A DNA stretch of 64,000 nucleotides from Patescibacteria group bacterium (GCA_022710645.1 JAKLGL010000002.1:78337-142336); one strand, 5' to 3'; counted from the stretch's first letter, positions 1-64,000 are shown. Translations and numbers: made by a program. Notes: generated from the letters alone by a model not told the origin.

Positions 1-3000
1 AAAATTGTTGCGCCAATTCCCTATAATTTTGCGGAGTGATTTCATAAGCTTTTTCTACAAACAATTTATCATCTCCTTCTTCTTCGCTTGTTCTGCCAAC
101 CACGCAAACCATTCTGCCTTCAACCCAAACATCTTTGGTAGTTTCATAAGTTTTTGGAAATACCAAAAGCTCCAATGTATCAGTCAGGTCAGCAATTGTC
201 ACAAACATCATAGTTTTTCCACTACGAGTAATTTTCTTTTTAGCCGATTCTATTATTCCTCCGACAATCACCCATTGATTCTTGCCTTGAGATGGCAAGT
301 CTTTAACCGGAACTAAACAGTCGCTCATTTTTTTTGCAAACGGTTCAAAAGGATGAGCTGTCACATACACCCCGAGTAATTCTTTTTCCCAATGCAAAAT
401 TTCATCTTTGGTGGCAACCGGAGCCGGATTTATTTTTACTTTATTGGTAAAACCGATAGAGCTTCCCGAAAATAAAGAATTTTGTTTGGTGTTGTTTTGT
501 TCGTGATTTTGTTTGATAAAGAGAAGAAAATTTTCAATATTTCCAAGCAACAATCCCCGGTCATAACCGAAAGCGTCCAAAGCTCCGCATTTGATGAGTG
601 CTTCAAGAGATTTTTTATTCAGATCTTTATCTTTGACTCGCTTGAAAAAATCTTCCAAATCTTTATATTTTCCACCTTCTTTTCTGGTGCGATAAATAAC
701 ATCTGCGATATGTTCACCCAAATTTTTAACTCCGCTCAAACCAAAACGAATATAAGGAGTCGTGCCGTCTTCCGGAGTTATCATGGCAAAATTTTTGAAA
801 CTTTGATTGATGTCCGGCGGTAAAACTTTGATACCAATCTTTTCACATTCATGAATAATTTCCGGCACTTTATCCATATCTCCGCTCTCCGCTATCAAAA
901 TCGCGGTCATATATTGAATCGGATAATTGGCTTTGAGATATGCAGTTTGATAAGCCACTACCGCATAAGAGGCAGCATGAGCTTTGTTGAAACCGTAAGC
1001 GGCAAACGGTTCGATTTTATGCCACAAATCGTCTACCAAAGCGGAATCCAATTTTCCAAATTCTTTACATCCTTTATAAAATTTTTCTTTTTGTTTTTCC
1101 ATTTCTTCGGGAATTTTTTTACCCATGGCTTTACGAAATTTATCCGCTTCTTCCCAGTTGTATCCGGCCAAATTTATAGCGGTCAACAAAACATCGTCCT
1201 GATAAACAATCAACCCCAACGACTGATCAAGATATGTTTCCATGCGCGGATCAAGATAAGTTATCAACTCCGGATTTTGTTTACGCGCAATATAATCCGG
1301 AATCACCGCCATCGGACCGGGACGGAAAAGCGCCACCATCGCCATGATATCAAAAATCGTTGTCGGTTTTAGTTCTTTGAGATAACGCGTCATTCCCGAA
1401 CCGGAAAGTTGAAATACACCGACAGTTTCACCGCGCGCCAACATCTCATAAGTTTTTTTATCATCCCAAGGAATATTGAAAACATCTATTTTTACTCCCG
1501 CGGTTTTTTCAATGATTTCTACGGCATGACCCAAAATAGATAGGTTACGAATACCCAAAAAATCCATTTTCAAAACTCCGGCCGCTTCTACAGTATGCAT
1601 TTCATATTGAGTCACGATACGTTCTCCCCCGGTTTCTCTTTGAATCGGCGTAAAATCTGTGAGTGGTGTCGGAGAAATAACCACACCCGCCGCGTGCATG
1701 GAAGTATGACGAGCACAGCCTTCTATTTTTTGCGCCAAATCAATCAATCTTTTTGCTTGCGCGTTTTTATCGTAAAGCTCTTTGAATTCCGGTTCCAATT
1801 CCAAAGCTTTGGCGATATTTATCTGAAAACCTTGAGCTCCGGCGGGAATAAGTTTTGATAATTGATCGCAAAAAGAATAAGAGTATCCTAACGCTCTACC
1901 CGCATCACGAATAGCTCCGCGCGCCATCATCGTACCGAAAGTTATAATCTGCGCCACTTTGTCCGCGCCGTATTTATCAGTAACATATTTGATCATATCA
2001 TCACGGCGGTCGTCGGCAAAGTCCGCATCAATATCCGGAGGACTCGGACGATAAGGATTCAAAAAACGTTCAAAAGGAAGTTTGAAATAAAGAGGGTTTA
2101 CCGTAGTGATACCCATAGCATAAGAAACTATGGAACCGGCGCCCGAACCTCTGGTTGTTTCCATAATTCCATTATTGCGCGCATAATTTACATAATCGGA
2201 CACAGCGATAAAATATGGAGAATAACCTTTTTTGGCGATAATCCCGAGTTCATAATCCACTCTTTCTCTCACAGCCGGAGAAATTTCTATCAATTTTGGC
2301 AATCTATCGTAAACTTCATCACGCAAATGTTCGTCAGCGGTTTTTCCTTCCGGTAATTCAATCGGCGGAAAATGCCATTTGTTTAATTCCAAAACCAAAT
2401 TTACTCTTTCCGCTATTTTGCCTGTATTTTCCAAAGCTTCCGGAATATGTTTGAAACGAGATGCGATATCTTTTTCATCGCAAAGAGAAAAATCCATCCC
2501 GACCATACTGTGACGTTCCGTATCTTCCAAAGTTTTTCCGTCTCTGATACAGGTCAAAATATCTTGAGCTTCCGCGTCCTCGGGATTCAAATAATGAACA
2601 TCGCGCGTGACGATAAGCGGAATCCCTGTTTCCTGGCTAATTTGTATCAATTGATTATTGATTTCCGTTTGACCTTCAAGCGCGGGAATATCCATCATTT
2701 CCAAAAAGAAATTTCCACGACCGAAAATCTCGTCATATTCAAGCGCGATTTTTTTGGCTTTTTCATAATTATTTTCTTTTTTCAAAGCCCAAGCGATTTC
2801 ACCGCGCATACAAGCGCTACCGCAAATAATACCTTCGTGATATTGACGTAATAATTCTCTGTCCATTCTCGGTTTATAATAAAAACCTTCGGTATGCGCC
2901 AGAGATGAAAGTTTCATCAAATTTTTATAACCAATATAATTTTCCGCCAACAAAAGAATATGAAAATACTTATCATGCGGATTTTTTTCCAAACGAGAAC

Positions 3001-3211
3001 CGCTGGCAATATAACCTTCCATCCCGATAATGGGTTTTATTTCTTCTTTGAGACATGCCTCATAAAATTCAATCGCTCCATACATATTGCCATGATCAGT
3101 CAAAGCCAACGCCGAAAAACCGCGTTTCTTCGCGGTCTTTACCAGTTCTTTGATTTTTGGCAATCCGTCCAAAAGCGAATAGTGGCTGTGGACGTGCAAG
3201 TGTGTAAACAC
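1..3211 (-). CDS. dnaE: DNA polymerase III alpha subunit, N-terminal part. The gene runs off the window start. GTG start at 3211.
   Basis: Minus-strand translation from 3211 reads VFTHLHVHSHYSLLDGLPKIKELVKTAKKRGFSALALTDHGNMYGAIEFYEA..., the PHP domain, followed by the polymerase core (GYNWEEADKFRKAMGKK, AAYGFNKAHAASYA). The ORF track lists only antisense junk ORFs here because this ORF has no end in the window. Confidence 0.85.
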   Translation of the reverse strand, partial: MFTHLHVHSHYSLLDGLPKIKELVKTAKKRGFSALALTDHGNMYGAIEFYEACLKEEIKPIIGMEGYIASGSRLEKNPHDKYFHILLLAENYIGYKNLMKLSSLAHTEGFYYKPRMDRELLRQYHEGIICGSACMRGEIAWALKKENNYEKAKKIALEYDEIFGRGNFFLEMMDIPALEGQTEINNQLIQISQETGIPLIVTRDVHYLNPEDAEAQDILTCIRDGKTLEDTERHSMVGMDFSLCDEKDIASRFKHIPEALENTGKIAERVNLVLELNKWHFPPIELPEGKTADEHLRDEVYDRLPKLIEISPAVRERVDYELGIIAKKGYSPYFIAVSDYVNYARNNGIMETTRGSGAGSIVSYAMGITTVNPLYFKLPFERFLNPYRPSPPDIDADFADDRRDDMIKYVTDKYGADKVAQIITFGTMMARGAIRDAGRALGYSYSFCDQLSKLIPAGAQGFQINIAKALELEPEFKELYDKNAQAKRLIDLAQKIEGCARHTSMHAAGVVISPTPLTDFTPIQRETGGERIVTQYEMHTVEAAGVLKMDFLGIRNLSILGHAVEIIEKTAGVKIDVFNIPWDDKKTYEMLARGETVGVFQLSGSGMTRYLKELKPTTIFDIMAMVALFRPGPMAVIPDYIARKQNPELITYLDPRMETYLDQSLGLIVYQDDVLLTAINLAGYNWEEADKFRKAMGKKIPEEMEKQKEKFYKGCKEFGKLDSALVDDLWHKIEPFAAYGFNKAHAASYAVVAYQTAYLKANYPIQYMTAILIAESGDMDKVPEIIHECEKIGIKVLPPDINQSFKNFAMITPEDGTTPYIRFGLSGVKNLGEHIADVIYRTRKEGGKYKDLEDFFKRVKDKDLNKKSLEALIKCGALDAFGYDRGLLLGNIENFLLFIKQNHEQNNTKQNSLFSGSSIGFTNKVKINPAPVATKDEILHWEKELLGVYVTAHPFEPFAKKMSDCLVPVKDLPSQGKNQWVIVGGIIESAKKKITRSGKTMMFVTIADLTDTLELLVFPKTYETTKDVWVEGRMVCVVGRTSEEEGDDKLFVEKAYEITPQNYRELAQQF

Positions 3212-3270
3212 AATTGAAAAGATTTAAGAGATTTAAAAGATTGCAAGATTTTTGAATAACAAGACTGTTT

Positions 3271-3344
3271 TGTCATTCCTGCGAAAGCAGGAATCCAGGA
3301 TTTTAAACGACTGCCGCTGGATCCCTGCTTTCGCAGGGATGACA
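3271..3344. repeat. Imperfect inverted repeat with 26-bp arms, each arm itself a small hairpin (cctgc-gaaa-gcagg). Arms are separated by 22 nt.
   Basis: tgtcattcctgcgaaagcaggaatcc ... ggatccctgctttcgcagggatgaca. Translated it gives the SFLRKQESRI / PAFAGMT junk peptide typical of a widespread palindromic repeat family. It sits in the dnaE upstream region. Confidence 0.6.
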
Positions 3345-3455
3345 GTTGAATTATATTGTAAAAAAATAAACCAAAAAGACCCTCCCTTTGGCTACTCCAT
3401 AATATCTCAAAAAACCGTCTTTGGCAACCTCCAAAAAATCTAGATTTTAAAATAA

Positions 3456-3486
3456 AAAAACCCGCACGTTATGCGCGGGGTATGAA
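3456..3486 (-). terminator. Rho-independent terminator downstream of paralog A.
   Basis: aaaaaaacccgcacgttatgcgcgggg is a GC stem with a T-run on the minus strand. It is near-identical to the terminator at 4805-4835. Confidence 0.5.
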
Positions 3487-3499
3487 AGAACAGCCGAAA

Positions 3500-4073
3500 T
3501 TAAAATGTTTCTTTACGAACAGCTAAAAACTTAGTTGCAGTAGATTCAGGCCAAGGATAATCAAATAGATAATTATCTAAATGATATCCAGATTTAGATA
3601 AATAATAACTAACAGGAACACAGGGGTGCTTATAACAATTAATAACGGACCCAAGAGCAACTACCATAAACTCCTTTTTTTTTGATTTCAGGATAAGTCC
3701 TGATAAAAACCTTGAATTCATGAAATGTTGCTGGACGAAGTCTGTTTTCTTCCATATGAGAAAGCACATCTTCTGTTGTAGGACGCCCTTCAAAAGGATT
3801 AAAAAGCTCTAAATCAAGATTAAATACACCATGTTCAATAACAGCAGGGAAATTACATTCTTTGTGAACAACATCAAAAACCACTTCTTCATTTTTTTCT
3901 TCATCATAATCAATAGAAATTGGATATTTTTTTGCAGAGATTAATTTATCTTCACAAAAATCTATCACTTTTTTCCTGTTTTTTGGATCAAATAAAGCAC
4001 GAGAATTTCTGTGTCCGAGTGCTTTCAAAAAAATCACCATCTCCTCAAAAAATCGTAACATTGTTTTCTCCAA
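3500..4073 (-). pseudogene. Paralog A of a three-member small-protein family. It is split into two overlapping frames (4073..3639 and 3793..3500) at an A9 homopolymer near 3664-3672. It may be a frameshifted pseudogene or a phase-variable gene.
   Basis: The N-terminus (FLKALGHRN..KKVIDFCEDKL) aligns with paralogs B and C (FIKAVGREN..KVKEFCKTL). Deleting one A from AAAAAAAAA fuses ...PEIKKK to EFMVVALGSV...AVRKETF. The upstream promoter and leader match copy C. Confidence 0.55.
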
Positions 4074-4078
4074 ATCTT

Positions 4079-4200
4079 TTCATTGTATTAATAATAAAAG
4101 GAACATATTTGTTGATTGCTTATCGTATAATATTTTAATGTTTTTGTCAACCCCGCTTAGCGGGGTTACAGTCACGCTCAGCGTGACAATATAATAATTG
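4079..4200 (-). promoter_or_regulatory. Duplicated upstream cassette (copy A). On the minus strand it reads hairpin gtcacgc-tga-gcgtgac, then hairpin ccccgc-tta-gcgggg, then -35 TTGACA, 17 nt, -10 TACGAT, then a conserved leader ending ATGGAGAAAACAATG.
   Basis: About 90% identical over roughly 115 nt to 6662-6775. The -35 is at 4145-4150 and the -10 at 4122-4127 (plus-strand coordinates). Confidence 0.5.
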
Positions 4201-4234
4201 ATCTAATTGATATTATCTTAACTTTTACAAGAAA

Positions 4235-4800
4235 TGAAAACCACCAGCTAACGCTGGTGGTTTCTTTCTTGCCGGCCGTTAGGCCGGCAGAGGCAACTTC
4301 GGTAGCTCTGGTCTGCGGGTTTGTTGATTATTGATATAGTTTTTAAGTTGGTATTCGTTAATACCGACGGTAGAGACAAAATAACCCCTTGACCAGAGCG
4401 AGCCCAACGGTAATTTATTGGGCGCCTTCTTTTTTAACCAATTACTACTTTTACCTTTGAATATTTGAACTACATAGGAAACGGAAAACTTAGGCGGAAT
4501 TATTATATAAAGATGAATATGTTCATCTCCGACATGCCAAGCTAACAATTTAATATCTTTCCATTTGGCTATCACCTTGAAAATTCTTTTTAATTCTTGT
4601 TTAATATACTTATCAACCAATACTTTACCGCGATATTTGGTAATCCAAACTAAGTGATATTGGCAAAGGTAAGTACAATGTTCCAGATTGTACAACCTAT
4701 ATGGTGCGGATGGAATAAAAATCACCTCCTTTCTGCTAAGCGGGGTGATTTTATTTTACCATGAGCTACGCTCCAAAAGGACACGCCGGCTAAAGCCGGC
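4235..4800 (-). mobile_element. IS200/IS605-family element carrying tnpA only. Boundaries are approximate.
   Basis: TnpA ORF flanked by subterminal hairpins: ccaccagc-taac-gctggtgg and gccggcc-gtta-ggccggc at 4243-4291, and cgccggc-taaa-gccggcg at 4775-4792. It is inserted between paralog cassettes A and B. Confidence 0.55.
4279..4725 (-). CDS. tnpA: IS200/IS605 family HUH/Y1 transposase TnpA (148 aa, GTG start).
   Basis: CQYHLVWITKYRGKVL ... DEHIHLYI (HuH) ... FKGKSSNWL ... LWSRGYFVSTVG (catalytic Tyr) ... NYINNQQ. This is a close pattern match to IS608-type TnpA. Confidence 0.8.
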   Translation of the reverse strand: MIFIPSAPYRLYNLEHCTYLCQYHLVWITKYRGKVLVDKYIKQELKRIFKVIAKWKDIKLLAWHVGDEHIHLYIIIPPKFSVSYVVQIFKGKSSNWLKKKAPNKLPLGSLWSRGYFVSTVGINEYQLKNYINNQQTRRPELPKLPLPA

Positions 4801-4804
4801 GGTT

Positions 4805-4835
4805 TTCGATTAATAAAAACCCGCACGTTGTGTGC
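4805..4835 (-). terminator. Rho-independent terminator downstream of paralog B.
   Basis: aaaaacccgcacgttgtgtgcggg has a 7-bp stem with a T-run on the minus strand. It is a near copy of the 3456-3486 terminator. Confidence 0.5.
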
Positions 4836-4853
4836 GGGATAACTTTGAGAATT

Positions 4854-5417
4854 TTAGGATTTGCGACGAAGGAGAAGAGCATTTTTTTTAAAAAAAAGAT
4901 CTCCATCCTTAAAATTATCACTTCCCCAACAATTTTCCTCCAGTAACTTAGATTCTTTGTCCCAAGTCAAATAATATTGATGGAAAGTATTTCCTATTCT
5001 TGGATTTAGATAATTGATGTTTTTTTCATCAACACCATCAACAAAAATCAAACAGTACTTCATAAAAATTTCTGGGAGACATTCTTTAAGCTCTAAAACA
5101 TAATCAATATCTTCAACCTCAACAACAGCGTTCAGTTCTTTTGCTCGTCTAATTACTTCATGGCCACTGATAGCATCCTCATCTTCTTTTAAAAAGGTTA
5201 TAATTTCATAAATCCGTCGACCAATTTTCATCTCTGTTGGTAATAAATTATGACCATTAGGTTTAATAGGGGCGAGAGTTTTACAAAAATCCTTCACTGC
5301 TCGACCGTTGTTTTTATCAACTAACCTTTCTGCATCTTCTTGTCCAAGATAATTAAGAAGATTGAGCAAATCTTTAACAGAAATTTTAACATGCAATCTT
5401 TCCATTTTAATCTCCAT
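4854..5417 (-). CDS. Paralog B of the small-protein family (187 aa). The likely true start is the second Met (MERLHVK...), using the GGAG inside ATGGAG as its SD.
   Basis: It shares FCKTL..LPTE.K.G.R.YE...FLK.DE..ISG and a C-terminal YY..W...LLLRRKS with paralogs A and C. It has its own consensus promoter. Confidence 0.6.
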   Translation of the reverse strand: MEIKMERLHVKISVKDLLNLLNYLGQEDAERLVDKNNGRAVKDFCKTLAPIKPNGHNLLPTEMKIGRRIYEIITFLKEDEDAISGHEVIRRAKELNAVVEVEDIDYVLELKECLPEIFMKYCLIFVDGVDEKNINYLNPRIGNTFHQYYLTWDKESKLLEENCWGSDNFKDGDLFFKKNALLLRRKS

Positions 5418-5458
5418 ACAAAGTTTAAAAATAAAAGGAACAATTTTACTAACTGCAT

Positions 5459-5487
5459 ATTATAGCACATTTTAGCACCCTTGTCAA
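5459..5487 (-). promoter_or_regulatory. Perfect sigma70 consensus promoter for paralog B. Minus strand: TTGACA-agggtgctaaaatgtgc-TATAAT, with the palindrome acccttgacaagggt overlapping the -35.
   Basis: Plus-strand tgtcaa at 5482-5487 and attata at 5459-5464, with a 17-nt spacer. The spacer is 14/17 identical to the promoter at 61503-61531. Confidence 0.5.
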
Positions 5488-5588
5488 GGGTATAATTTGG
5501 CTAATTTAAGACATTTTACAAAACAAAAACCCGCCATTTTCAGACGAATTTTTTATAATTTCGTAATTTTTCGTAAGTTCGTACGTAT

Positions 5589-5975
5589 TTATTTTTTCAT
5601 TTTCTTCGCCACTTTCTTAACCTTCTTCTGCGCAACCTCCATAGCTCTATCAACCGCATCTTTGGCGATGTCGCCAAAATCATCAACTTTATCATCCATA
5701 AAATTTCTAGCTTTTTTGGTAATGAAATTTTTTACCATTCCTCCGGCTGTTTCTTTGGCCATACCGAGCAAAGAAGAAATTCCTTCTATTTTATCTTGGA
5801 TAGAATTTATCGTATCTGTGATTCTCTGCAAACGAAGACGAAATTCTTCTACAATTGTATTTACATTTTTCAAAATCATCGCGGCGTAATAAAAAGTGTA
5901 ACAAAGAAACGCCGTTAACCAAATAATACAAAACGAAATGACGATATATAAAATATCTTTTGAATTTTCCAACAT
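5589..5975 (-). CDS. Small membrane-anchored coiled-coil protein (128 aa), possibly DUF948-like.
   Basis: N-terminal TM helix ILYIVISFCIIWLTAFLCYTFYYAAMIL followed by a charged helical tail. A strong RBS (aaggagg) precedes the ATG. Confidence 0.5.
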   Translation of the reverse strand: MLENSKDILYIVISFCIIWLTAFLCYTFYYAAMILKNVNTIVEEFRLRLQRITDTINSIQDKIEGISSLLGMAKETAGGMVKNFITKKARNFMDDKVDDFGDIAKDAVDRAMEVAQKKVKKVAKKMKK

Positions 5976-6069
5976 ATTTCCTCCTTATTAAATTTTAATT
6001 ATATTTGAATTATAACATTTTTTAGAAAAACGAGCAAATAGTCATAAATAAACTTACGAAAGTATATAA

Positions 6070-6122
6070 AAAAAGAAAACCCTGTATATCATTTGCTAAA
6101 AGCATTTGATACACAGGGGTAT
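6070..6122 (-). terminator. Rho-independent terminator for paralog C (12-bp stem).
   Basis: Minus strand: ccctgtgtatca ... tgatatacaggg followed by ttttctttttttat. Confidence 0.5.
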
Positions 6123-6182
6123 GAATTTGCGAAGTGCCCAAGGAATCAAGAAACGATTCCAAGAATCCAAGGACCCAAGCGA

Positions 6183-6662
6183 CTACTTGCGACGGAGAAT
6201 CAGACCAGCGTCACGCTGGTAGTAGTCGTTATGAGAGACCCAGCCTCCGATCCAACGGTCATCGTCCCAGTAGACATAGCAGACGTCACCGGAACCGTCG
6301 GGACGGTGCCAATTTGTAAAGACAAAGTAAACTTTGCCTCTAAAATTTTCCGGAATATTCTGCTGGTGATCCAGCAAATATTGCCCGTCGTCCTCTCCGA
6401 GATGTGCCAACATCTCTTTTGCCTGCCTGACCATACCGTTCCCAGAAATTATTTCCTCGTCCCCTTTGAGGAATCCGAGAAGTTCGTAGGTACGATCACC
6501 TACTTTTATTTCAGTCGGCAGGTCTGAAGGAGAAATAAGAGTTTTGCAAAACTCTTTTACTTTTTCTATATTACTTTCCTTAAGTAATATAGTGAAATTT
6601 TCTCTCCCGACGGCTTTGATAAAATTACTGATTTTTTTTAAGAAATTCATTTCAATCTCCAT
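6183..6662 (-). CDS. Paralog C of the small-protein family (159 aa). The C-terminal variable half is GC-rich.
   Basis: MEIEMNFLKKISNFIKAVGREN..KVKEFCKTLISPSDLPTEIKVGDRTYELLGFLKGDEEIISG ... YVYWDDDRWIGGW...LILRRK. Its promoter cassette is the same as paralog A's. Confidence 0.6.
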   Translation of the reverse strand: MEIEMNFLKKISNFIKAVGRENFTILLKESNIEKVKEFCKTLISPSDLPTEIKVGDRTYELLGFLKGDEEIISGNGMVRQAKEMLAHLGEDDGQYLLDHQQNIPENFRGKVYFVFTNWHRPDGSGDVCYVYWDDDRWIGGWVSHNDYYQRDAGLILRRK

Positions 6663-6775
6663 TACAAATTTATAATAATAAAAGGAACTATTTTATTGAT
6701 TGCTTATCGTATAATATTTTAACTTTTTTGTCAACCCCGCTTAGCGGGGTTGTAGTCACGCTCAGCGTGACAAAA
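6662..6775 (-). promoter_or_regulatory. Duplicated upstream cassette (copy C): two GC hairpins, then TTGACA-17-TACGAT, then the conserved leader.
   Basis: tgtcaa at 6729-6734, ccccgcttagcgggg at 6735-6749, gtcacgctcagcgtgac at 6755-6771, and the -10 atcgta at 6706-6711. Confidence 0.5.
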
Positions 6776-6861
6776 CTCCATTTAATTCAGCTAATTTAGC
6801 GATTCCGCAAAACAAAAAACCGCCCTTGCGAGCGATTTTTAATATCCAGTATCCAATATTT

Positions 6862-9324
6862 TTACCCTCTCATTTCCGCTTTAAACTTTTCTTTCAAAAT
6901 ATTTGAAATTTTCCCCATCACTTCATCAACTTCTCCGGTATTAAGTGTTCTTTCCGAAGAACCGAAAATAAATCTGTAAGCCATGCTTTTATCCCCCGCT
7001 TTCACATGTTCACCTTCGTAAACATCAAAAAGTTCTGCGGATTTCAAAAGAGGATAAACATCTTTGATTTTGGAAATAATTTCTTGATGAGAAATATTTT
7101 TATCAACTGTAAAAGCTAAATCTCTTTCCACAGTCGGAAATTCGGAAATCGACGTGTAAGTAAAAGGATTTTTCTCTTTCAATATATCGAGCAAATCATT
7201 CAAATTAATTTCCAATACCCCGACTCTTTCGTTTAAATCCCATTTTTTCGCTGTGAGAGGATTGATTTCAAAAATCATACCGACCATTTTACCATCAATA
7301 AAAATTTCTCCCACTCTGCCCGGATGGGCAAAATTTTTCACAAACTTCGGAGCTTCAATCAAAAAGTCTGTTTTCAAATCCGCCATGATTTTTTCCAAAG
7401 CCAAACGAACTGGGAAAAATCCGCTTTGTCCTTTTTTGGAATAATTCACGATTGTCAACACACTATCTTGTCTCGGCAATAATTCATCATTATTGGAAAG
7501 AGCTCTCGGACCGGCCAATTCCGCCAAATAAATTTTACCGATTTCAAAAATATTCACTTGATCAAAATTTTCCATGTTTTTTTGAACATTTTCCAACACA
7601 TTCGGCAACAATTCTCGACGTAAATACGGTTTTTCTTTTGAAAGCGGATTATCAAGTTCCAAATATTTGGTTTTATCTTCGCCTAAACGTTCAATTTGAG
7701 CATCGCTGATAAAAGAATAATTATAAACTTCGTCATAAGCGAGTTCTTTGGATAAAATATTGCGTAAACGATGTTCCAAATCTCGCAATTCATTTTTCTC
7801 CGGCGGCGCAATTTCAAAAGACGGTAAAATACTTTCTATTTTATCGTAACCGTAAATTCTGCCTATTTCTTCGGCTAAATCCTCGGCCATGGAAATATCT
7901 TTGGTCGCGCGCCAGGTCGGAATTTTCACGCTTAAACCGTCTTTACCTTTTTCTTTAACTTCAAAACCCAAGCGTGTCAAGATACCGATAATTTCTTTTT
8001 TATCCAAATCAATTCCGATTTTCTTACAAATATCTCCGACACTGGTTTGAATCGGTCCGGTAGCCAAATGAAAATTCTTTTCATCTACTATATTACTTAC
8101 AACTTTGGCTTCCGGACAAAAATCCAATATCATTTCTACTGCTTTTTTCAAAGCATCAGACGTCATATTCGGATCCAAACTTTTTTCAAAACGCGCGGAA
8201 GAATCTGTGCGACTATCATAACGAAGCGCAGTTTTGCGAATATTTACCGGTTCAAAATTAGCTGATTCAAAAATAATTGTTGTTGTGCTATCACTGATAC
8301 CACTATCAAATCCGCCCATCACCCCAGCTAGAGCAATAGGTTTTTCTTCATCCGCAATTACCAAATCATTTTCCGTCAATTTAATCACTTTTTCATCAAG
8401 TAATTTAAAATCTTCTTCCGGTTTAGCGGTACGAACAATAATAGTTTTTGAATTTTTGTTTTTAGTTTTTAAATTATTGGCATCAAAAGCATGAAGTGGT
8501 TGTCCCAAATCATACATTATATAATTGGTAATATCCACGACATTGTTGATACTACGCAAACCAACAGCTGACAAACTTTGTTGCAACCAAAGCGGAGACG
8601 GCCCGATTTTTATTCCATCTACTACGACCGCCATATAACGCGGACACAATTTAATATCATCCACATCTACTTTTAATTTTATTTCTTTACCGGGAATAAT
8701 TTCTTTTGTTTCATAATTTTTTAATTCTCGTGGAAAAAGCACAGATACTTCACGCGCTATACCGTAATGTCCCCACAAATCCGGGCGGTTGGAAAGTGAT
8801 TTATTGTCAATTTCCAAAACTACATCGTCTAATCCTAAAGCTTTTTTCAATTCTGTTCCTGGTTTAAATTTCAATTCTGTAAAATCCAAAATTTCTTTCT
8901 CTCCTTTTGCCGGAAACATCTGTTCCAAACCGATTTCACTACCTCCACACATCATCCCGTAAGAATCTACATCGCGAATTTTGGTTGGTACAATTTCTAC
9001 CAAATCTTTTTCCCCATGCCAATGTACTTTGGCTCCGACTTTGGCCACTGCCACTAACATTCCATCCGCTACATTGCTACCACCACAAACAATTTGCAAA
9101 CTTTCTTTTCCTACATCCACCAAACACAATTTCAATTTATCAGCATTTGGATGTTTGTCAGCTTTGAGGACTTTTCCAACTACAATATTATGTAGCCCGT
9201 CACCTTGTCTGATAATATTTTCCACTTCTACCGTACTCAATTTCAATTTTTCCGCTACTATCTCCGGAGTAATGGAATCAGGCAAGGTAATATATTTTTT
9301 TAACCAATTGTAAGAAATATTCAT
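6862..9324 (-). CDS. pheT: Phenylalanine--tRNA ligase beta subunit.
   Basis: 820 aa. The N-terminus MNISYNWLKKYI is PheT-like, with the tRNA-binding and B3/4 regions arranged in PheT order and pheS immediately downstream in the operon (pheS is transcribed first on the minus strand). Confidence 0.9.
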   Translation of the reverse strand: MNISYNWLKKYITLPDSITPEIVAEKLKLSTVEVENIIRQGDGLHNIVVGKVLKADKHPNADKLKLCLVDVGKESLQIVCGGSNVADGMLVAVAKVGAKVHWHGEKDLVEIVPTKIRDVDSYGMMCGGSEIGLEQMFPAKGEKEILDFTELKFKPGTELKKALGLDDVVLEIDNKSLSNRPDLWGHYGIAREVSVLFPRELKNYETKEIIPGKEIKLKVDVDDIKLCPRYMAVVVDGIKIGPSPLWLQQSLSAVGLRSINNVVDITNYIMYDLGQPLHAFDANNLKTKNKNSKTIIVRTAKPEEDFKLLDEKVIKLTENDLVIADEEKPIALAGVMGGFDSGISDSTTTIIFESANFEPVNIRKTALRYDSRTDSSARFEKSLDPNMTSDALKKAVEMILDFCPEAKVVSNIVDEKNFHLATGPIQTSVGDICKKIGIDLDKKEIIGILTRLGFEVKEKGKDGLSVKIPTWRATKDISMAEDLAEEIGRIYGYDKIESILPSFEIAPPEKNELRDLEHRLRNILSKELAYDEVYNYSFISDAQIERLGEDKTKYLELDNPLSKEKPYLRRELLPNVLENVQKNMENFDQVNIFEIGKIYLAELAGPRALSNNDELLPRQDSVLTIVNYSKKGQSGFFPVRLALEKIMADLKTDFLIEAPKFVKNFAHPGRVGEIFIDGKMVGMIFEINPLTAKKWDLNERVGVLEINLNDLLDILKEKNPFTYTSISEFPTVERDLAFTVDKNISHQEIISKIKDVYPLLKSAELFDVYEGEHVKAGDKSMAYRFIFGSSERTLNTGEVDEVMGKISNILKEKFKAEMRG

Positions 9325-11679: not shown

Positions 11680-12246
11680 ATGAGTATACTTTACATCGTT
11701 TTGGGGGTTTTGGCAATAGTCATAATTTGGCTTATTGCTACATATAACGGCTTGATTACAACAAAAAATCGCGTAGACGAAGCGCTTAGCGATATTGATG
11801 TTCAGCTCAAACGTCGTTATGATTTAATCCCGAATTTAGTGGAAACTGTCAAAGGCTATATGACCCACGAACAAAGCACTTTGATTAAATTGACCGAGGC
11901 TCGCGCTTCCGCTATGTCCGTTCATGATAATAAAAACGCTACTTTAGCCCAAAGAGAACAGGCCGAAAATGCCTTATCTTCCACTTTAAAATCTTTATTT
12001 GCCGTAACGGAAAATTATCCTGATCTCAAAGCCAGTCAAAATTTCTTGCAACTTCAAGATGAAATTTCCGATACAGAAAATAAAATCCAAGCTTCTCGCA
12101 GATTTTATAATGGTAATGTTCGTGATTTCAACACCAAAATTCAAATCTTCCCTACCAACCTTATCGCCGGAATGTTGAAATTTGTTAAATACGATTTTTT
12201 TCAAGCCGCCGAACAAGAGAGAAATAATGTACAAGTTAAATTCTAG
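11680..12246 (+). CDS. lemA: LemA family protein.
   Basis: N-terminal TM helix plus the IDVQLKRRYDLIPNLVETVKGY motif. It is paired with an htpX-like gene, as is common. Confidence 0.8.
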   Translation: MSILYIVLGVLAIVIIWLIATYNGLITTKNRVDEALSDIDVQLKRRYDLIPNLVETVKGYMTHEQSTLIKLTEARASAMSVHDNKNATLAQREQAENALSSTLKSLFAVTENYPDLKASQNFLQLQDEISDTENKIQASRRFYNGNVRDFNTKIQIFPTNLIAGMLKFVKYDFFQAAEQERNNVQVKF

Positions 12247-13990: not shown

Positions 13991-14377
13991 CTATCTTATT
14001 CCGTATCTTTTTCCTACGAAATAACAGGCAAGGTGATCATTGAAATTTTTTCTGATAAATTTCATCTGGTTGAAATTGACTACGACATATACCAATTCAC
14101 CGTTAGTACACGCCGATGCGTAATTTTTTATGAAAGATATCATTGCTTTCTGATCGTGTTCCGCCTCCAAAAAAGAACTTGCTATCGGTTTAATCTGCAT
14201 GCAGTCGCTTATCTTTCTTCCAATTTCATAAGACTGCCCAGTATGCGCGCAAAGCACGCGTTTTTCAGGTTTTTTAATGGCAAAGTCTTTGATTCCTCGA
14301 TCAAATTCTTCAACCACCATTTCAGGATTTTGACAATGATTAGCAGAAACAAACACAATTCCGGATTCTGACGGCAT
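13991..14377 (-). CDS. Hypothetical protein (128 aa) with strong RBS GGAGGGA.
   Basis: ORF with taggagggaacgATG. It is preceded by a 44-aa small ORF and the CCCCGC hairpin/promoter module. A terminator lies at 13955-13980. Confidence 0.5.
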   Translation of the reverse strand: MPSESGIVFVSANHCQNPEMVVEEFDRGIKDFAIKKPEKRVLCAHTGQSYEIGRKISDCMQIKPIASSFLEAEHDQKAMISFIKNYASACTNGELVYVVVNFNQMKFIRKNFNDHLACYFVGKRYGIR

Positions 14378-14559: not shown

Positions 14560-14603
14560 AGTATAAACTAAAATTTATCTTTTGTCAACCCCGCTAAGCG
14601 GGG
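14560..14603 (-). promoter_or_regulatory. Third copy of the CCCCGC-hairpin plus TTGACA-17-TATACT promoter module.
   Basis: Plus strand tgtcaa at 14583-14588, ccccgctaagcgggg at 14589-14603, and -10 agtata at 14560-14565. Confidence 0.45.
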
Positions 14604-62808: not shown

Positions 62809-64000
62809 TTATTTTTGTTTTCCAGAGATGATATTTTGAGCGACATTATTCGGTACTTCGGCATAATGAGAAAATTCCATAGTGGAACTAGCGCGACCCT
62901 GAGTAATGTTGCGTAAATTGGTGGTATAACCAAACATAGAAGCGAGCGGAACAATGGCTTTCACCACTTTGAGTTGTCCGCGTTCAGTCATTTCTTGAAT
63001 TTGACCTCGTTTGGAGTTCAAATCACCGATAACGTCTCCCATGAATTGTTCCGGGGTTAAAACTTCAACTTTCATGATAGGTTCCAAAATAATCGGATTG
63101 GCTTTGCGACACGCATCTTGAAAAGCCATAGAGCCGGCCATTTTGAAAGCAGCTTCGGAAGAATCTACTTCATGATAAGAACCGTCAAAACAAGTAACTT
63201 TGATATCCACTACCGGATAACCTGCTTGCACACCGCGAGTGATGGCTTCTTTGATACCTTTTTCAATGGCCGGAATATATTCGCGAGGAACAACACCGCC
63301 TTTGACAGCATCGACAAATTCAAAGTTACCTTTGGTTTTATCTTCTTGAGGTTCAACACGCAACCAGCAATGACCATATTGACCGCGACCGCCAGATTGT
63401 TTGATATATTTACCTTCGGCTTCGGCGGAATTTTTGATGGTTTCTTTGTAAGCAACTTGTGGAGCGCCGACATTGGCTTCCACTTTAAATTCACGTTTCA
63501 TGCGGTCCACGATAATTTCCAAATGCAACTCACCCATACCTTCGATGATGGTTTGTAAAGTTTCTTCATCAGTATGAACGCGGAAAGTCGGATCTTCTTC
63601 GGTAAGCTTTTGTAAAGCCATACCGATTTTTTCTTGATCAGCTTTGGTTTTCGGTTCAATAGCGATAGAGATAACCGGTTCTGGAAAAGTAATTTTTTCC
63701 AAAACTATAGGTTTGTTTTCATCACAAAGAGTGTCTCCGGTCACCGTATCTTTGAGCCCGATAGCAGCGGCGATTTCACCGGCAAAAACTTCGTTTACAT
63801 CTTCACGATGATTGGCGTGCATACGGACGATACGAGAAATTCTTTCTCTTTCGCCTTTGGTAGAATTGAGCACATATGAACCGGTAGTAACTTTACCGGA
63901 ATAAACACGGAAGAAAATCAAACGACCGACAAAAGGATCGGTAGCAACTTTAAAAGCCAAAGCGGAAAAAGGTTCTTCGTCTTCGGCTTTACGAGACATA
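62809..64000 (-). CDS. fusA: Elongation factor G, C-terminal part. The gene continues beyond the window end.
   Basis: Domains III-V of EF-G: ...[16 protein letters not shown]..., ending SGKQK. Confidence 0.9.

What the first reader, a model, noticed from the sequence alone, without database searches (positions are those of the whole stretch)
3220..6860. Accessory island between dnaE and pheT: three divergent paralogs, each in its own promoter-hairpin-terminator cassette, with an IS200-type element interleaved
Between two core genes sits a 3.6 kb block holding three homologous small ORFs, A at 3500-4073, B at 4854-5417 and C at 6183-6662. They share an N-terminal about 60 residues (F.KA.G..N....L.....KV..FCKTL..P..LPTE.K.G.R.YE...FLK.DE..ISG) and a C-terminal YY..W......RRK tail. 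Their middles differ completely and are GC-richer than the genome. Copies A and C are driven by an about 115-bp near-identical upstream cassette containing two GC hairpins, a TTGACA-17-TACGAT promoter and a conserved leader ending ATGGAGAT.GAAATG. Copy B has its own perfect consensus promoter with the same leader. Copies A and B share the same terminator. Repeated cassette duplication with middle-domain diversification, each copy carrying an independent strong promoter, is the architecture of a diversifying family such as immunity-type or surface-variable proteins. No partner toxin or other partner gene is visible in the window.
Basis: partly seen in the sequence, partly recalled or inferred. 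Interest (0 to 1): 0.8.

Follow-up and report, generated by a model that had tools for sequence, protein, structure and literature searches.

The report
Orphaned DGR variable-protein gene cluster
The three small genes between pheT and dnaE belong to a family that related ultra-small (CPR) bacteria hypermutate with a diversity-generating retroelement, but here one intact copy and two decayed copies sit with no retroelement in about 82 kb, so this is a known system caught after duplication and decay.

Summary
There are three promoter-to-terminator gene cassettes, a 92%-identical upstream cassette shared by A and C, and an IS200 transposase gene between B and A. The three genes are not equivalent, however.

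- **C (6183-6650, minus strand)** is an intact member of a large unannotated CPR family (1339 cluster representatives). It has a predicted C-type-lectin-like fold.
- **Family link to DGRs.** In homologues, including C's closest relative (63% identity), the last ~126 nt form a DGR variable region (VR). A template repeat (TR), usually bAvd, and a reverse transcriptase (RT) lie next to it. All or nearly all VR/TR mismatches fall on template adenines (16/16, 15/15, 17/17, 23/24).
- **C's own 3' end** carries that signature: 59% GC and 17% A, against 38% and 35% in the rest of the gene.
- **B** is a full-length paralogue that has lost the signature.
- **A** is a frameshifted chimera. It keeps only the family's N-terminal ~50 residues, tail and terminator.

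No TR, RT or Avd lies in the window or in about 18 kb beyond it. The site where the closest relative keeps its DGR is empty in this genome.

Verdict: this is a new member of a known kind, namely an orphan or remote DGR target cluster. It is not an immunity-protein array.

The parts
6183..6650 (-). Gene C (155 aa from the GGAG-preceded ATG at 6650; locus tag P5230_03075). It is an intact family member with an N-terminal three-helix module and a C-type-lectin-like domain.
6186..6311 (-). Variable-region-like 3' end of C (last 42 codons, WHRPDGSGDV...LILRRK).
   Evidence: GC 0.59 and A 0.17, against 0.38 and 0.35 in the rest of the gene. Third codon positions are C21 T13 G7 A1. It has the same length and register as the 126-nt VR/TR of L048. 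Against that TR, 21/35 adenine positions differ vs 17/91 other positions, Fisher p 1.9e-5.
6129..6182 (-). Imperfect long hairpin with CTTGG repeats directly 3' of C's stop codon. The same element follows the VR in many family loci.
   Evidence: C's copy lacks about 8 nt of the 3' arm relative to L048's. A role in DGR target recognition is inferred, not shown.
6066..6119 (-). Intrinsic terminator-like hairpin plus T-tract ending the C transcript.
   Evidence: Read from the sequence and the fold of the 3' flank.
6668..6773 (-). Upstream cassette of C. It holds hairpin GTCACGC-TGA-GCGTGAC (6755-6771), palindrome AACCCCGC-TAA-GCGGGGTT (6733-6752) abutting TTGACA, a promoter at 6706-6734, and the leader.
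   Evidence: 92% identical to 4082-4189. Promoter scan. The same architecture, with a compensatory change in hairpin 2, sits upstream of the L015 homologue.
5589..5975 (-). 128-aa membrane-anchored coiled-coil protein. It is conserved between pheT and the family gene in relatives and is not a family member.
   Evidence: Only weak DUF948/YtxH-like matches. The same gene is in L007, L008 and L009, at 88% amino-acid and 84% nucleotide identity.
4854..5405 (-). Gene B (183 aa; P5230_03085). It is a full-length paralogue of C whose VR-equivalent C-terminus has decayed: AT-rich, with an insertion and K/E-rich.
   Evidence: 34% identity to C, E 3e-24. Last 129 nt are 33% GC. The likely orthologue P0017 aligns at 47% over the first 130 residues only. 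A plain terminator follows the stop, with no CTTGG hairpin.
5459..5487 (-). Promoter of B: TTGACA-17-TATAAT with TG extension. The leader continues to 5406.
   Evidence: 12/12 match. The promoter and leader are 83-88% identical to those of the homologues in L007/L019, L013 and L048.
4820..4838 (-). Terminator of B.
4190..4812 (-). IS200/IS605-type insertion sequence with approximate ends. tnpA is at 4279-4725 and is flanked by GC hairpins at 4237-4264, 4271-4292 and 4784-4801.
   Evidence: Pfam Y1_Tnp E 1.2e-33. Hairpins. Sub-threshold Rfam hits over the end hairpins. The element is absent from relative L007. The Logan contig L002 breaks inside it.
4082..4189 (-). Upstream cassette of A, with the same two hairpins, TTGACA-17-TACGAT promoter (4122-4150) and leader as C's.
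3500..4061 (-). Gene A (P5230_03095), a frameshifted chimera. Residues 1-50 are family-like, the middle is unique, and the last codons and terminator are family-like. The frameshift is at the A9 run 3675-3683.
   Evidence: Two ORFs, sequence. Only the N-terminus matches the family. There is no homologue other than itself among 5.8 billion proteins. The 3' end and terminator match those of the L007 gene.
3461..3479 (-). Terminator of A.
   Evidence: It is closer to the terminator of the L007 gene than B's is.
3248..3367 (.). Inverted repeat with 51-nt arms built from two copies of the dispersed palindromic element GTCATYCCYGC...GCRGGRATCCAG. It bounds the cluster on the dnaE side.
   Evidence: repeat I1. 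In 6 of the 7 sequences that carry it, the element lies within 134-424 nt of the family gene or cluster, out of ~457 kb searched.

Best explanation
The pheT-dnaE interval of this Candidatus Magasanikbacteria (CPR) genome holds a small birth-and-death cluster of genes from a family of DGR variable proteins.

Family members are small proteins with no evident signal peptide or membrane helix. They have an optional N-terminal three-helix module and a C-type-lectin-like domain. The last ~42 residues of that domain form the ligand-binding surface. In related genomes a DGR rewrites exactly those 126 nt. A template repeat is transcribed, then copied by an error-prone reverse transcriptase that misincorporates at adenines, usually with bAvd. 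The cDNA replaces the variable region.

Gene C is an intact member whose variable region still carries that imprint. It probably encodes a working binding protein, and consensus-type promoter and terminator signals flank it. Gene B is a paralogue that has drifted out of the system: its VR signature and VR-flanking hairpin are gone. Gene A is a recombinant of a C-type promoter and N-terminus with an ancestral terminator, has a unique middle, and is now frameshifted.

The cluster arose by duplication and exchange of promoter and terminator modules, plus an IS200 insertion.

Shown here: family membership, the VR imprint, DGR linkage in homologues, and absence of a TR, RT or Avd in ~82 kb.

Inferred: C's VR was written by a DGR (about 0.85). 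C is now an orphan whose sequence is frozen (about 0.55-0.6), rather than a remote target still rewritten in trans (about 0.3).
For: **Family and fold**
- C has 20 close homologues and 1339 representatives at E<=1e-3. The conserved core is residues ~41-155.

**DGR linkage in homologues**
- L003/L004: target, TR, bAvd and RVT_1 together. All VR/TR differences visible in the sequence lie at TR adenines.
- L014 15/15, L022 17/17 and L039 23/24 mismatches at TR adenines, each with Avd and RT.
- L048, C's closest homologue (63% identity): 16/16, with an RT downstream.
- L021 is a remote paralogue matching L014's TR in the same MAG, 17/18 at adenines.

**Imprint on C**
- The VR is 59% GC and 17% A, against 38% and 35% for the rest of the gene. 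Codons are almost all NNC/NNT.
- Against L048's TR, 60% of adenine positions differ vs 19% of others, p 1.9e-5.
- A CTTGG hairpin follows the stop codon, as in DGR-linked members.

**No DGR nearby**
- The adenine-tolerant TR scan of the window is negative.
- tblastn with RT and Avd is negative in the window and in ~18 kb of flanks, L049-L051.
- The 2.97-kb target-TR-RT insert of L048 is replaced by 76 nt at the syntenic site of this genome.

**Mosaic origin**
- L007's single gene matches B's promoter (83%), C's coding sequence (89%) and A's terminator and flank (78-88%).

**Literature**
- CPR DGR targets (clade 2) typically lack transmembrane or other recognisable domains (PMC8144416).
Against: - No TR or RT was found for C itself, so its DGR history rests on homology and composition.
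- C departs from the family at positions that template repeats encode without adenine (W-x-W-L becomes W-V-S-H). Its own template must therefore have differed, or the VR has drifted.
- Only ~82 kb of a genome likely close to 1 Mb could be examined, so a DGR elsewhere cannot be excluded.
- The source genome proved absent from the two large DNA collections, because its own VR was not found there.
- The function of the proteins and their ligand are unknown.
Confidence: 0.8

Rival explanations
1. C is a live remote target. A DGR (TR plus RT, with or without Avd) elsewhere in this genome still rewrites C's variable region in trans, and the cluster is part of an active diversification system.
For: - Remote targeting occurs in this family: L021's VR matches the TR of L014 on another contig of the same MAG, 17/18 mismatches at adenines.
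- 34 of 37 genomic family loci lack a DGR within 6 kb, yet most of them keep GC-rich, A-poor 3' ends.
- C keeps a strong A-depleted VR, an intact ORF, consensus-type promoter and terminator signals, and a VR-flanking hairpin.
- CPR-type DGR RTs are extremely common, with more than 8000 hits.
Against: - No TR, RT or Avd lies in ~82 kb around C.
- The site where the closest relative has its DGR is empty here.
- C's flanking hairpin lacks 8 nt of one arm relative to that relative's.
- The C-like gene of relative L007 has the same VR in four samples.
- Neighbours A and B are visibly decaying.
Confidence: 0.3
2. The three genes are immunity-type or antitoxin-like proteins of a polymorphic toxin system. 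They would be duplicated as independently expressed cassettes.
For: The genes are small and have no evident export signals, sit in tandem, each have their own promoter, and have divergent sequences.
Against: - No Pfam, NCBIfam or PADLOC match exists, including to any immunity family.
- No toxin gene lies beside them here or in the related loci whose genes were examined.
- The fold is C-type-lectin-like.
- The recurrent partners in homologues are a reverse transcriptase and bAvd.
Confidence: 0.03
3. The block is mainly a product of mobile-element activity. The double-hairpin promoter cassette, the GTCATYCC...GGRATCCAG palindromes and the IS200 would move or recombine the genes. On this reading the genes themselves are decaying passengers with no current function.
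For: - The cassette is far better conserved (92%) than the coding sequences it precedes (about 35% amino-acid identity over the N-terminus).
- It recurs upstream of a homologue in a different genomic context, L015.
- The palindromic element sits within 134-424 nt of the family gene or cluster in 6 of the 7 sequences that carry it. It also lies at the edge of L048's 2.97-kb DGR insert.
- A is frameshifted, B is degenerate, and an IS is present.
Against: - C and B are intact ORFs with strong promoter matches in an AT-rich genome, where random ORFs close quickly.
- C's core is 89% identical at nucleotide level to a relative's over 93 nt, which indicates constraint.
- No transposase specific to these elements was identified.
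- Mobility explains the arrangement, not what the proteins are.
Confidence: 0.15

Closest known systems
DGR variable proteins with C-type-lectin fold (Mtd of Bordetella phage BPP-1, TvpA of Treponema denticola) and the CPR-restricted 'clade 2' DGRs of Roux et al. 2021 (PMC8144416)
   Same: The diversified ~126 nt lie at the extreme 3' end of the gene, and the fold is C-type-lectin-like. In homologues a TR, usually bAvd, and an RT sit next to the gene, and VR/TR mismatches fall on adenines. As reported for CPR targets, there is no evident signal peptide, membrane helix or Pfam domain.
   Different: C itself has no TR, RT or Avd within ~82 kb. The protein is much smaller than Mtd or TvpA. It carries an N-terminal three-helix module of unknown role. 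Sequence similarity to solved targets is undetectable.
Multi-target DGRs with remote or orphan variable regions (known for example in Treponema and Legionella; from general knowledge)
   Same: Paralogous target genes lie away from the RT/TR cassette. This is shown for this family by L021 and L014. The decayed DGR in L018, with its TR kept and most of its RT deleted, shows how orphans arise.
   Different: For the window's genome it is not known whether any DGR remains. Two of the three paralogues have already lost the VR signature.
Polymorphic-toxin immunity gene arrays (SUKH/Imm families)
   Same: Tandem small paralogues, each with its own promoter.
   Different: There is no family match, no toxin neighbour, a different predicted fold, and a different diversification mechanism.
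IS200/IS605 insertion sequences
   Same: A single ~148-aa Y1 transposase gene flanked by subterminal GC hairpins, in an element of about 0.6 kb.
   Different: It is a passenger here, inserted between B's terminator and A's promoter cassette. There is no evidence that it mobilises the genes.

Membership tests
DGR variable (target) protein | A variable region with a cognate template repeat that differs from it almost only at template adenines | tested here: not met
   The adenine-tolerant scan of the 64-kb window found no TR for A, B or C. No further copy was found in L049-L051. The feature is met in the homologues: L003, L014, L022 and L039, L048 and, remotely, L021.
DGR variable (target) protein | A DGR-clade reverse transcriptase (often with Avd) in the same genome, usually adjacent | tested here: inconclusive
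   None lies in the window or in ~18 kb of flanks. The syntenic DGR site of L048 is empty here. The rest of the genome could not be read.
DGR variable (target) protein | Sequence homology to proteins whose 3' ends are demonstrably DGR-diversified, with the VR in the same register | tested here: met
   C is 63% identical to P0002 (L048) and 47-50% identical to the targets in L003, L014 and L022. C's 126-nt 3' end aligns without gaps to L048's VR and TR.
DGR variable (target) protein | Compositional imprint of adenine mutagenesis in the VR (A-depleted, NNC/NNT codons, differences concentrated at template-A positions) | tested here: met
   Met for C (Fisher p 1.9e-5). Not met for B (33% GC) or A (31.6% GC over the whole gene).
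DGR variable (target) protein | C-type-lectin (or Ig-like) fold presenting the VR | tested here: met
DGR variable (target) protein | Cis elements for retrohoming at the 3' end of the VR (IMH and a flanking hairpin) | tested here: inconclusive
   A CTTGG hairpin follows C's stop codon as in other members. It lacks 8 nt relative to L048's. RNAalifold gave no consensus structure on the crude alignment. Function is not testable here.
Polymorphic-toxin immunity protein (SUKH/Imm) | Match to an immunity family profile or fold | tested here: not met
   No Pfam, NCBIfam or PADLOC hit at E<=1 to any immunity family. The fold is C-type-lectin-like.
Polymorphic-toxin immunity protein (SUKH/Imm) | An adjacent toxin-domain gene | tested here: not met
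   Neighbours are pheT, dnaE, a 128-aa coiled-coil protein and IS200 tnpA. Homologous loci show an RT and bAvd instead.
IS200/IS605 | A Y1 (HUH) transposase of ~150 aa | tested here: met
   Pfam PF01797 E 1.2e-33, covering profile positions 2-121 of 121.
IS200/IS605 | Subterminal hairpins at both ends, and multiple copies in the genome | tested here: inconclusive
   GC hairpins lie on both sides. There is no second copy in the window. A Logan contig breaking inside the IS hints at repeats.

The most novel reading that the evidence does not exclude
Most members of this large CPR family (34 of 37 genomic loci) sit far from any DGR. The pheT-dnaE cluster may therefore record a general life cycle of DGR targets. 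In that cycle, cassettes bounded by a specific palindromic element and carrying portable promoter modules are copied around the genome. They are diversified in trans for a time, and then either freeze as fixed-specificity binding proteins (C) or decay (B, A). The double-hairpin element abutting the -35 box, which also precedes an unrelated small gene at 14589, may be a shared operator that co-regulates these genes.
Probability: 0.25. Interest if true: 0.5.

Novelty: new member of a known kind. Interest (0 to 1): 0.3.

Why it matters
- **An annotation.** Three 'hypothetical' genes, and a family of more than a thousand unannotated CPR protein clusters, can now be described as C-type-lectin-like DGR variable proteins.
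- **The cluster itself.** An apparently odd paralogue cluster is the residue of a known hypermutation system rather than a new kind of cassette array.
- **A paired comparison.** The window's genome and L048 give an empty site against a 2.97-kb target-TR-RT insert. Together with L018's half-deleted DGR, they are a useful natural series for studying how DGR targets are gained, moved, orphaned and lost in reduced genomes.
- **Open question.** The ligand of these proteins in CPR bacteria remains unknown.

Tried and rejected
- **Profile searches.** Pfam, NCBIfam and PADLOC scans of A, B, C and the 128-aa protein gave nothing useful. A PDB sequence-profile search gave only chance hits.
- **RNA families.** The Rfam scan of 2500-7500 gave only sub-threshold sRNA matches over the IS end hairpins. 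There is no riboswitch or leader family.
- **TR search in public collections.** A degenerate 'VR base or A' pattern found nothing in genome contigs or metagenome contigs. Local controls showed that the pattern works, so the source genome is simply not in those collections.
- **VR variants in metagenomes.** A gapped pattern anchored on constant flanks found nothing.
- **Finding this genome's RT.** A protein search with an RT alignment returned more than 8000 CPR RTs. None was labelled with this MAG's locus-tag prefix, so the result is uninformative.
- **Gene A.** A single-sequence AF2 model of the repaired protein was unusable (pLDDT 37). A homologue search found only A itself.
- **VR-flanking hairpins.** RNAalifold gave no consensus because the alignment was poor.
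- **afdb50 fold library.** It was not available.
- **Other VR/TR candidates in the window.** A-poor GC-rich stretches and AAC-rich stretches were checked. The one candidate pair read (48.9 kb and 49.95 kb) is ordinary coding sequence. The other four A-poor stretches flagged were not read.
- **IS200 and the cassette hairpin.** The 12-nt similarity between the IS200 5' end and cassette hairpin 2 is not significant.

Full report
**What is in the sequence**

All genes of the interval are on the minus strand. Reading in the direction of transcription:

| Order | Feature | Coordinates |
|---|---|---|
| 1 | pheT | 6862-9324 |
| 2 | Terminator of pheT | 6815-6840 |
| 3 | Upstream cassette of C | 6668-6773 |
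| 4 | Gene C | 6183-6650 |
| 5 | Imperfect long hairpin | 6129-6182 |
| 6 | Terminator of C | 6066-6119 |
| 7 | 128-aa gene | 5589-5975 |
| 8 | Consensus promoter of B | 5459-5487 |
| 9 | Gene B | 4854-5405 |
| 10 | Terminator of B | 4820-4838 |
| 11 | IS200-type element (tnpA 4279-4725) | about 4190-4812 |
| 12 | Second copy of the upstream cassette | 4082-4189 |
| 13 | Gene A | 3500-4061 |
| 14 | Terminator of A | 3461-3479 |
| 15 | Large inverted repeat | 3248-3367 |
| 16 | dnaE | from about 3217 |

- The two cassettes are 92% identical over about 108 nt.
- Each cassette contains two perfect hairpins followed directly by TTGACA-17-TACGAT.
- B's promoter is a 12/12 consensus with a TG extension.
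- tnpA matches Pfam Y1_Tnp at E 1.2e-33.

**The three genes are not equivalent**

- B and C align over their full length (34% identity, E 3e-24).
- A matches C only over the first ~50 residues (E 1e-5; hhalign against the family profile, 85% probability, residues 2-52).
- A is split by a frameshift in an A9 run at 3675-3683. One fewer A would give a single 186-aa ORF.
- A has no homologue other than itself among 5.8 billion proteins.
- Only C is GC-richer than the window (43% vs 37%). A and B are 32%.

**What family this is**

- C has 20 close relatives in the word-indexed search.
- A profile built from them (A1) finds 1339 cluster representatives at E<=1e-3, of which 633 are at E<=1e-10.
- The conserved core is residues ~41-155. 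The N-terminal helical module is optional.
- Some proteins carry 2-4 tandem copies of the domain.
- None of Pfam, NCBIfam or PADLOC recognises the family.
- An AlphaFold2 model of C built on the alignment is confident (pLDDT 88.9). It shows three N-terminal helices followed by a beta-hairpin, two helices and a five-stranded sheet.
- Foldseek agrees only weakly, with no hit at E<=0.001.

**The family is a DGR target family**

| Locus | Relation to C | Local DGR parts | VR/TR mismatches at TR adenines |
|---|---|---|---|
| L003-L005 (P0018) | 47% identity | TR, bAvd, RVT_1 | every difference visible in the sequence |
| L014 | family member | TR, Avd, RT | 15/15 |
| L022 | family member | TR, Avd, RT | 17/17 |
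| L039 | family member | TR, Avd, RT | 23/24 |
| L048 (P0002) | closest homologue, 63% identity | TR, RT | 16/16 over a 126-nt pair |
| L021 | family member on another contig of L014's MAG | none local | 17/18 against L014's TR |

- In L003 a 122-nt repeat of the gene's 3' end follows the gene. The gene's own copy is the VR and the downstream copy is the TR.
- L021 shows that members far from the cassette can be rewritten in trans.
- L018 shows the opposite fate. Its TR is still present, but Avd and RT residues 1-246 are deleted and the RT tail carries stop codons.
- Overall, 34 of the 37 genomic loci have no DGR within 6 kb, yet most keep GC-rich, A-poor 3' ends.
- The literature reports that CPR ('clade 2') DGR targets typically lack transmembrane or other recognisable domains. 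It leaves open whether they are genuinely non-membrane proteins (PMC8144416).

**The imprint on gene C**

- C's last 126 nt (6186-6311) are 59% GC and 17% A, against 38% and 35% for the rest of the gene.
- Third codon positions there are C21, T13, G7 and A1. This is the composition expected after adenines of a template have been randomised.
- The segment has the same length and register as L048's VR and TR. Against that TR, 21 of 35 adenine positions differ but only 17 of 91 other positions do (odds ratio 6.5, Fisher p 1.9e-5).
- Directly after the stop codon lies a long imperfect hairpin with CTTGG repeats. The same element follows the VR in many family members, including DGR-linked ones.
- C's copy of that hairpin lacks about 8 nt of the 3' arm compared with L048's.
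- B, A and the L007 gene have a plain terminator at this position instead.
- B's VR-equivalent region is 33% GC and no longer aligns with that of its likely orthologue P0017.

**No DGR near C**

- An adenine-tolerant scan of both strands of the window finds no template for A, B or C.
- tblastn with RT and Avd finds nothing in the window.
- I extended the sequence by about 9.5 kb beyond dnaE (L049) and 8.4 kb beyond the window's other end (L050, L051). L050 and L051 are 100% identical to the window where they overlap it. Again there is no RT, Avd or further family copy.
- The extension was informative in another way. L048's genome is a close relative, with flanking genes 82-83% identical at nucleotide level. 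Its target-TR-RT cassette is a 2,972-nt segment between a SAM methyltransferase gene and a small ORF upstream of a pseudouridine synthase gene.
- In the window's genome the same two flanks are separated by only 76 nt. The DGR is therefore absent from the place where the closest known relative keeps it.
- The rest of the genome (assembly GCA_035454185.1, contig DAOTEN010000004.1; Candidatus Magasanikbacteria, locus tags P5230_03075, _03085 and _03095) could not be searched. It is not in the two large DNA collections.
- An RT protein search returned thousands of unlabelled CPR RTs.

**How the cluster arose**

A second relative, L007 (pheT 84% identical at amino-acid level), has only pheT, the 128-aa gene, one family gene and dnaE, with no IS. 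Its single gene is a mosaic of the window's three:

| Part of the L007 gene | Matches in the window | Nucleotide identity |
|---|---|---|
| Promoter and leader | B's | 83% |
| Coding core | C's | 89% over 93 nt |
| 3' end and terminator | A's | 78% |
| Downstream flank | A's | 88% |

- L048's target has a B-type promoter (88.5%) and a C-type coding region with the hairpin (76% over 557 nt).
- The double-hairpin cassette of A and C recurs upstream of the homologue in L015, after uvrB, with a compensatory change in hairpin 2: AACCCCGC/GCGGGGTT becomes AAGCCCGC/GCGGGCTT.
- The three copies are therefore products of duplication and exchange of promoter and terminator modules, followed by an IS200 insertion and decay of A and B.
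- The C-like gene of L007 has an identical VR in four independent samples. That gives no sign of ongoing diversification in that lineage.

**Conclusion and confidence**

| Claim | Confidence |
|---|---|
| C is a member of a DGR variable-protein family | about 0.9 |
| C carries a DGR-written variable region | about 0.85 |
| C is now an orphan with a frozen sequence | about 0.55-0.6 |
| C is still rewritten in trans by a DGR elsewhere | about 0.3 |

- The balance between the last two rows rests on the empty syntenic site, the shortened hairpin and the decaying neighbours. Only the complete assembly or read-level data can settle it.
- The immunity-protein idea has no support.
- The finding is a correct observation of an unusual-looking cluster, but it belongs to a known system. 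Interest is moderate to low.

Noticed in passing
window 3248-3367; also L007 7559-7583, L015 5696-5720, L012 5843-5867, L048 4690-4734: A dispersed palindromic element (GTCATYCCYGC...GCRGGRATCCAG) occurs in only 7 of the ~40 sequences searched (~457 kb). In 6 of those 7 it lies within 134-424 nt of the family gene or cluster. In L048 it sits 45 nt inside the edge of the 2.97-kb DGR insert. It may mark cassette boundaries or recombination sites.
   Followed up: partly
window 14589-14603 (also 4151-4165 and 6735-6749): The palindrome CCCCGCTWAGCGGGG abutting a TTGACA -35 box occurs three times in the window (0.04 expected by chance). The third copy is upstream of an unrelated 128-aa ORF (13991-14377, minus strand). 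It could be a shared operator or an insulating hairpin.
   Followed up: partly
window 3675-3683: An A9 homopolymer causes A's frameshift, and A8 would restore a 186-aa ORF. JGI contig L001 is 100% identical to the window over this region, but it may derive from the same reads. Slippage, phase variation or a sequencing error cannot be told apart.
   Followed up: partly
window 6129-6182; L003, L011, L016, L017, L025, L035, L048 and others, directly after the VR stop codon: A rod-like hairpin of 6-7-bp helices, separated by TT/TT internal loops (CTTGG repeats), follows the variable region in many family members. The helices differ between loci while the TT loops are kept. It is possibly the DGR target-recognition structure for this clade.
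   Followed up: partly
L011, L014, L023, L025, L038, L040 leaders: Many family members share a 5'-UTR motif, GGCTTTCTTYGTG, followed some tens of nt later by its complement just before the start codon. This suggests a conserved leader stem-loop. It is absent from the window's three copies.
   Followed up: no
L018 4900-5700: A decayed DGR. The TR and its terminal hairpin are retained after the target gene, but Avd and RT residues 1-246 are deleted and the remaining RT tail contains stop codons.
   Followed up: yes
L051 13796-13873 (about 6 kb beyond window position 64000) vs L048 4646-7617: This is an empty site against an occupied site. The relative's 2,972-nt target-TR-RT cassette is replaced by 76 nt in the window's genome, between conserved flanks that are 82-83% identical.
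   Followed up: yes
L002 (Logan SRR5007146 contig), end at 12213: An independent assembly of the same genome breaks inside the IS200 tnpA. This suggests that the IS is present in more than one copy in the genome.
   Followed up: no
window 4219-4305: Sub-threshold Rfam matches (BSnc120, 33.8 bits against a gathering score of 114; psRNA14) lie over the GC hairpins at the 3' end of the IS200 element. They are probably IS-end structures rather than sRNA genes.
   Followed up: no
P0021-P0028: Some predicted proteins contain two to four tandem copies of the family domain in one ORF, for example P0021 with 517 aa and four copies.
   Followed up: no
L011-L019 and other loci: Many TPA_asm MAGs carrying the family are titled 'uncultured Gammaproteobacteria'. 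One of them (L019) shares the pheS-pheT-128aa-family gene order with the Magasanikbacteria window. The label therefore looks like a placeholder rather than a real taxonomic assignment.
   Followed up: no
window 4884-4899: A T8A8 tract lies inside the 3' end of gene B (encoding LFFKKN). It is another slippage-prone homopolymer pair in the cluster.
   Followed up: no
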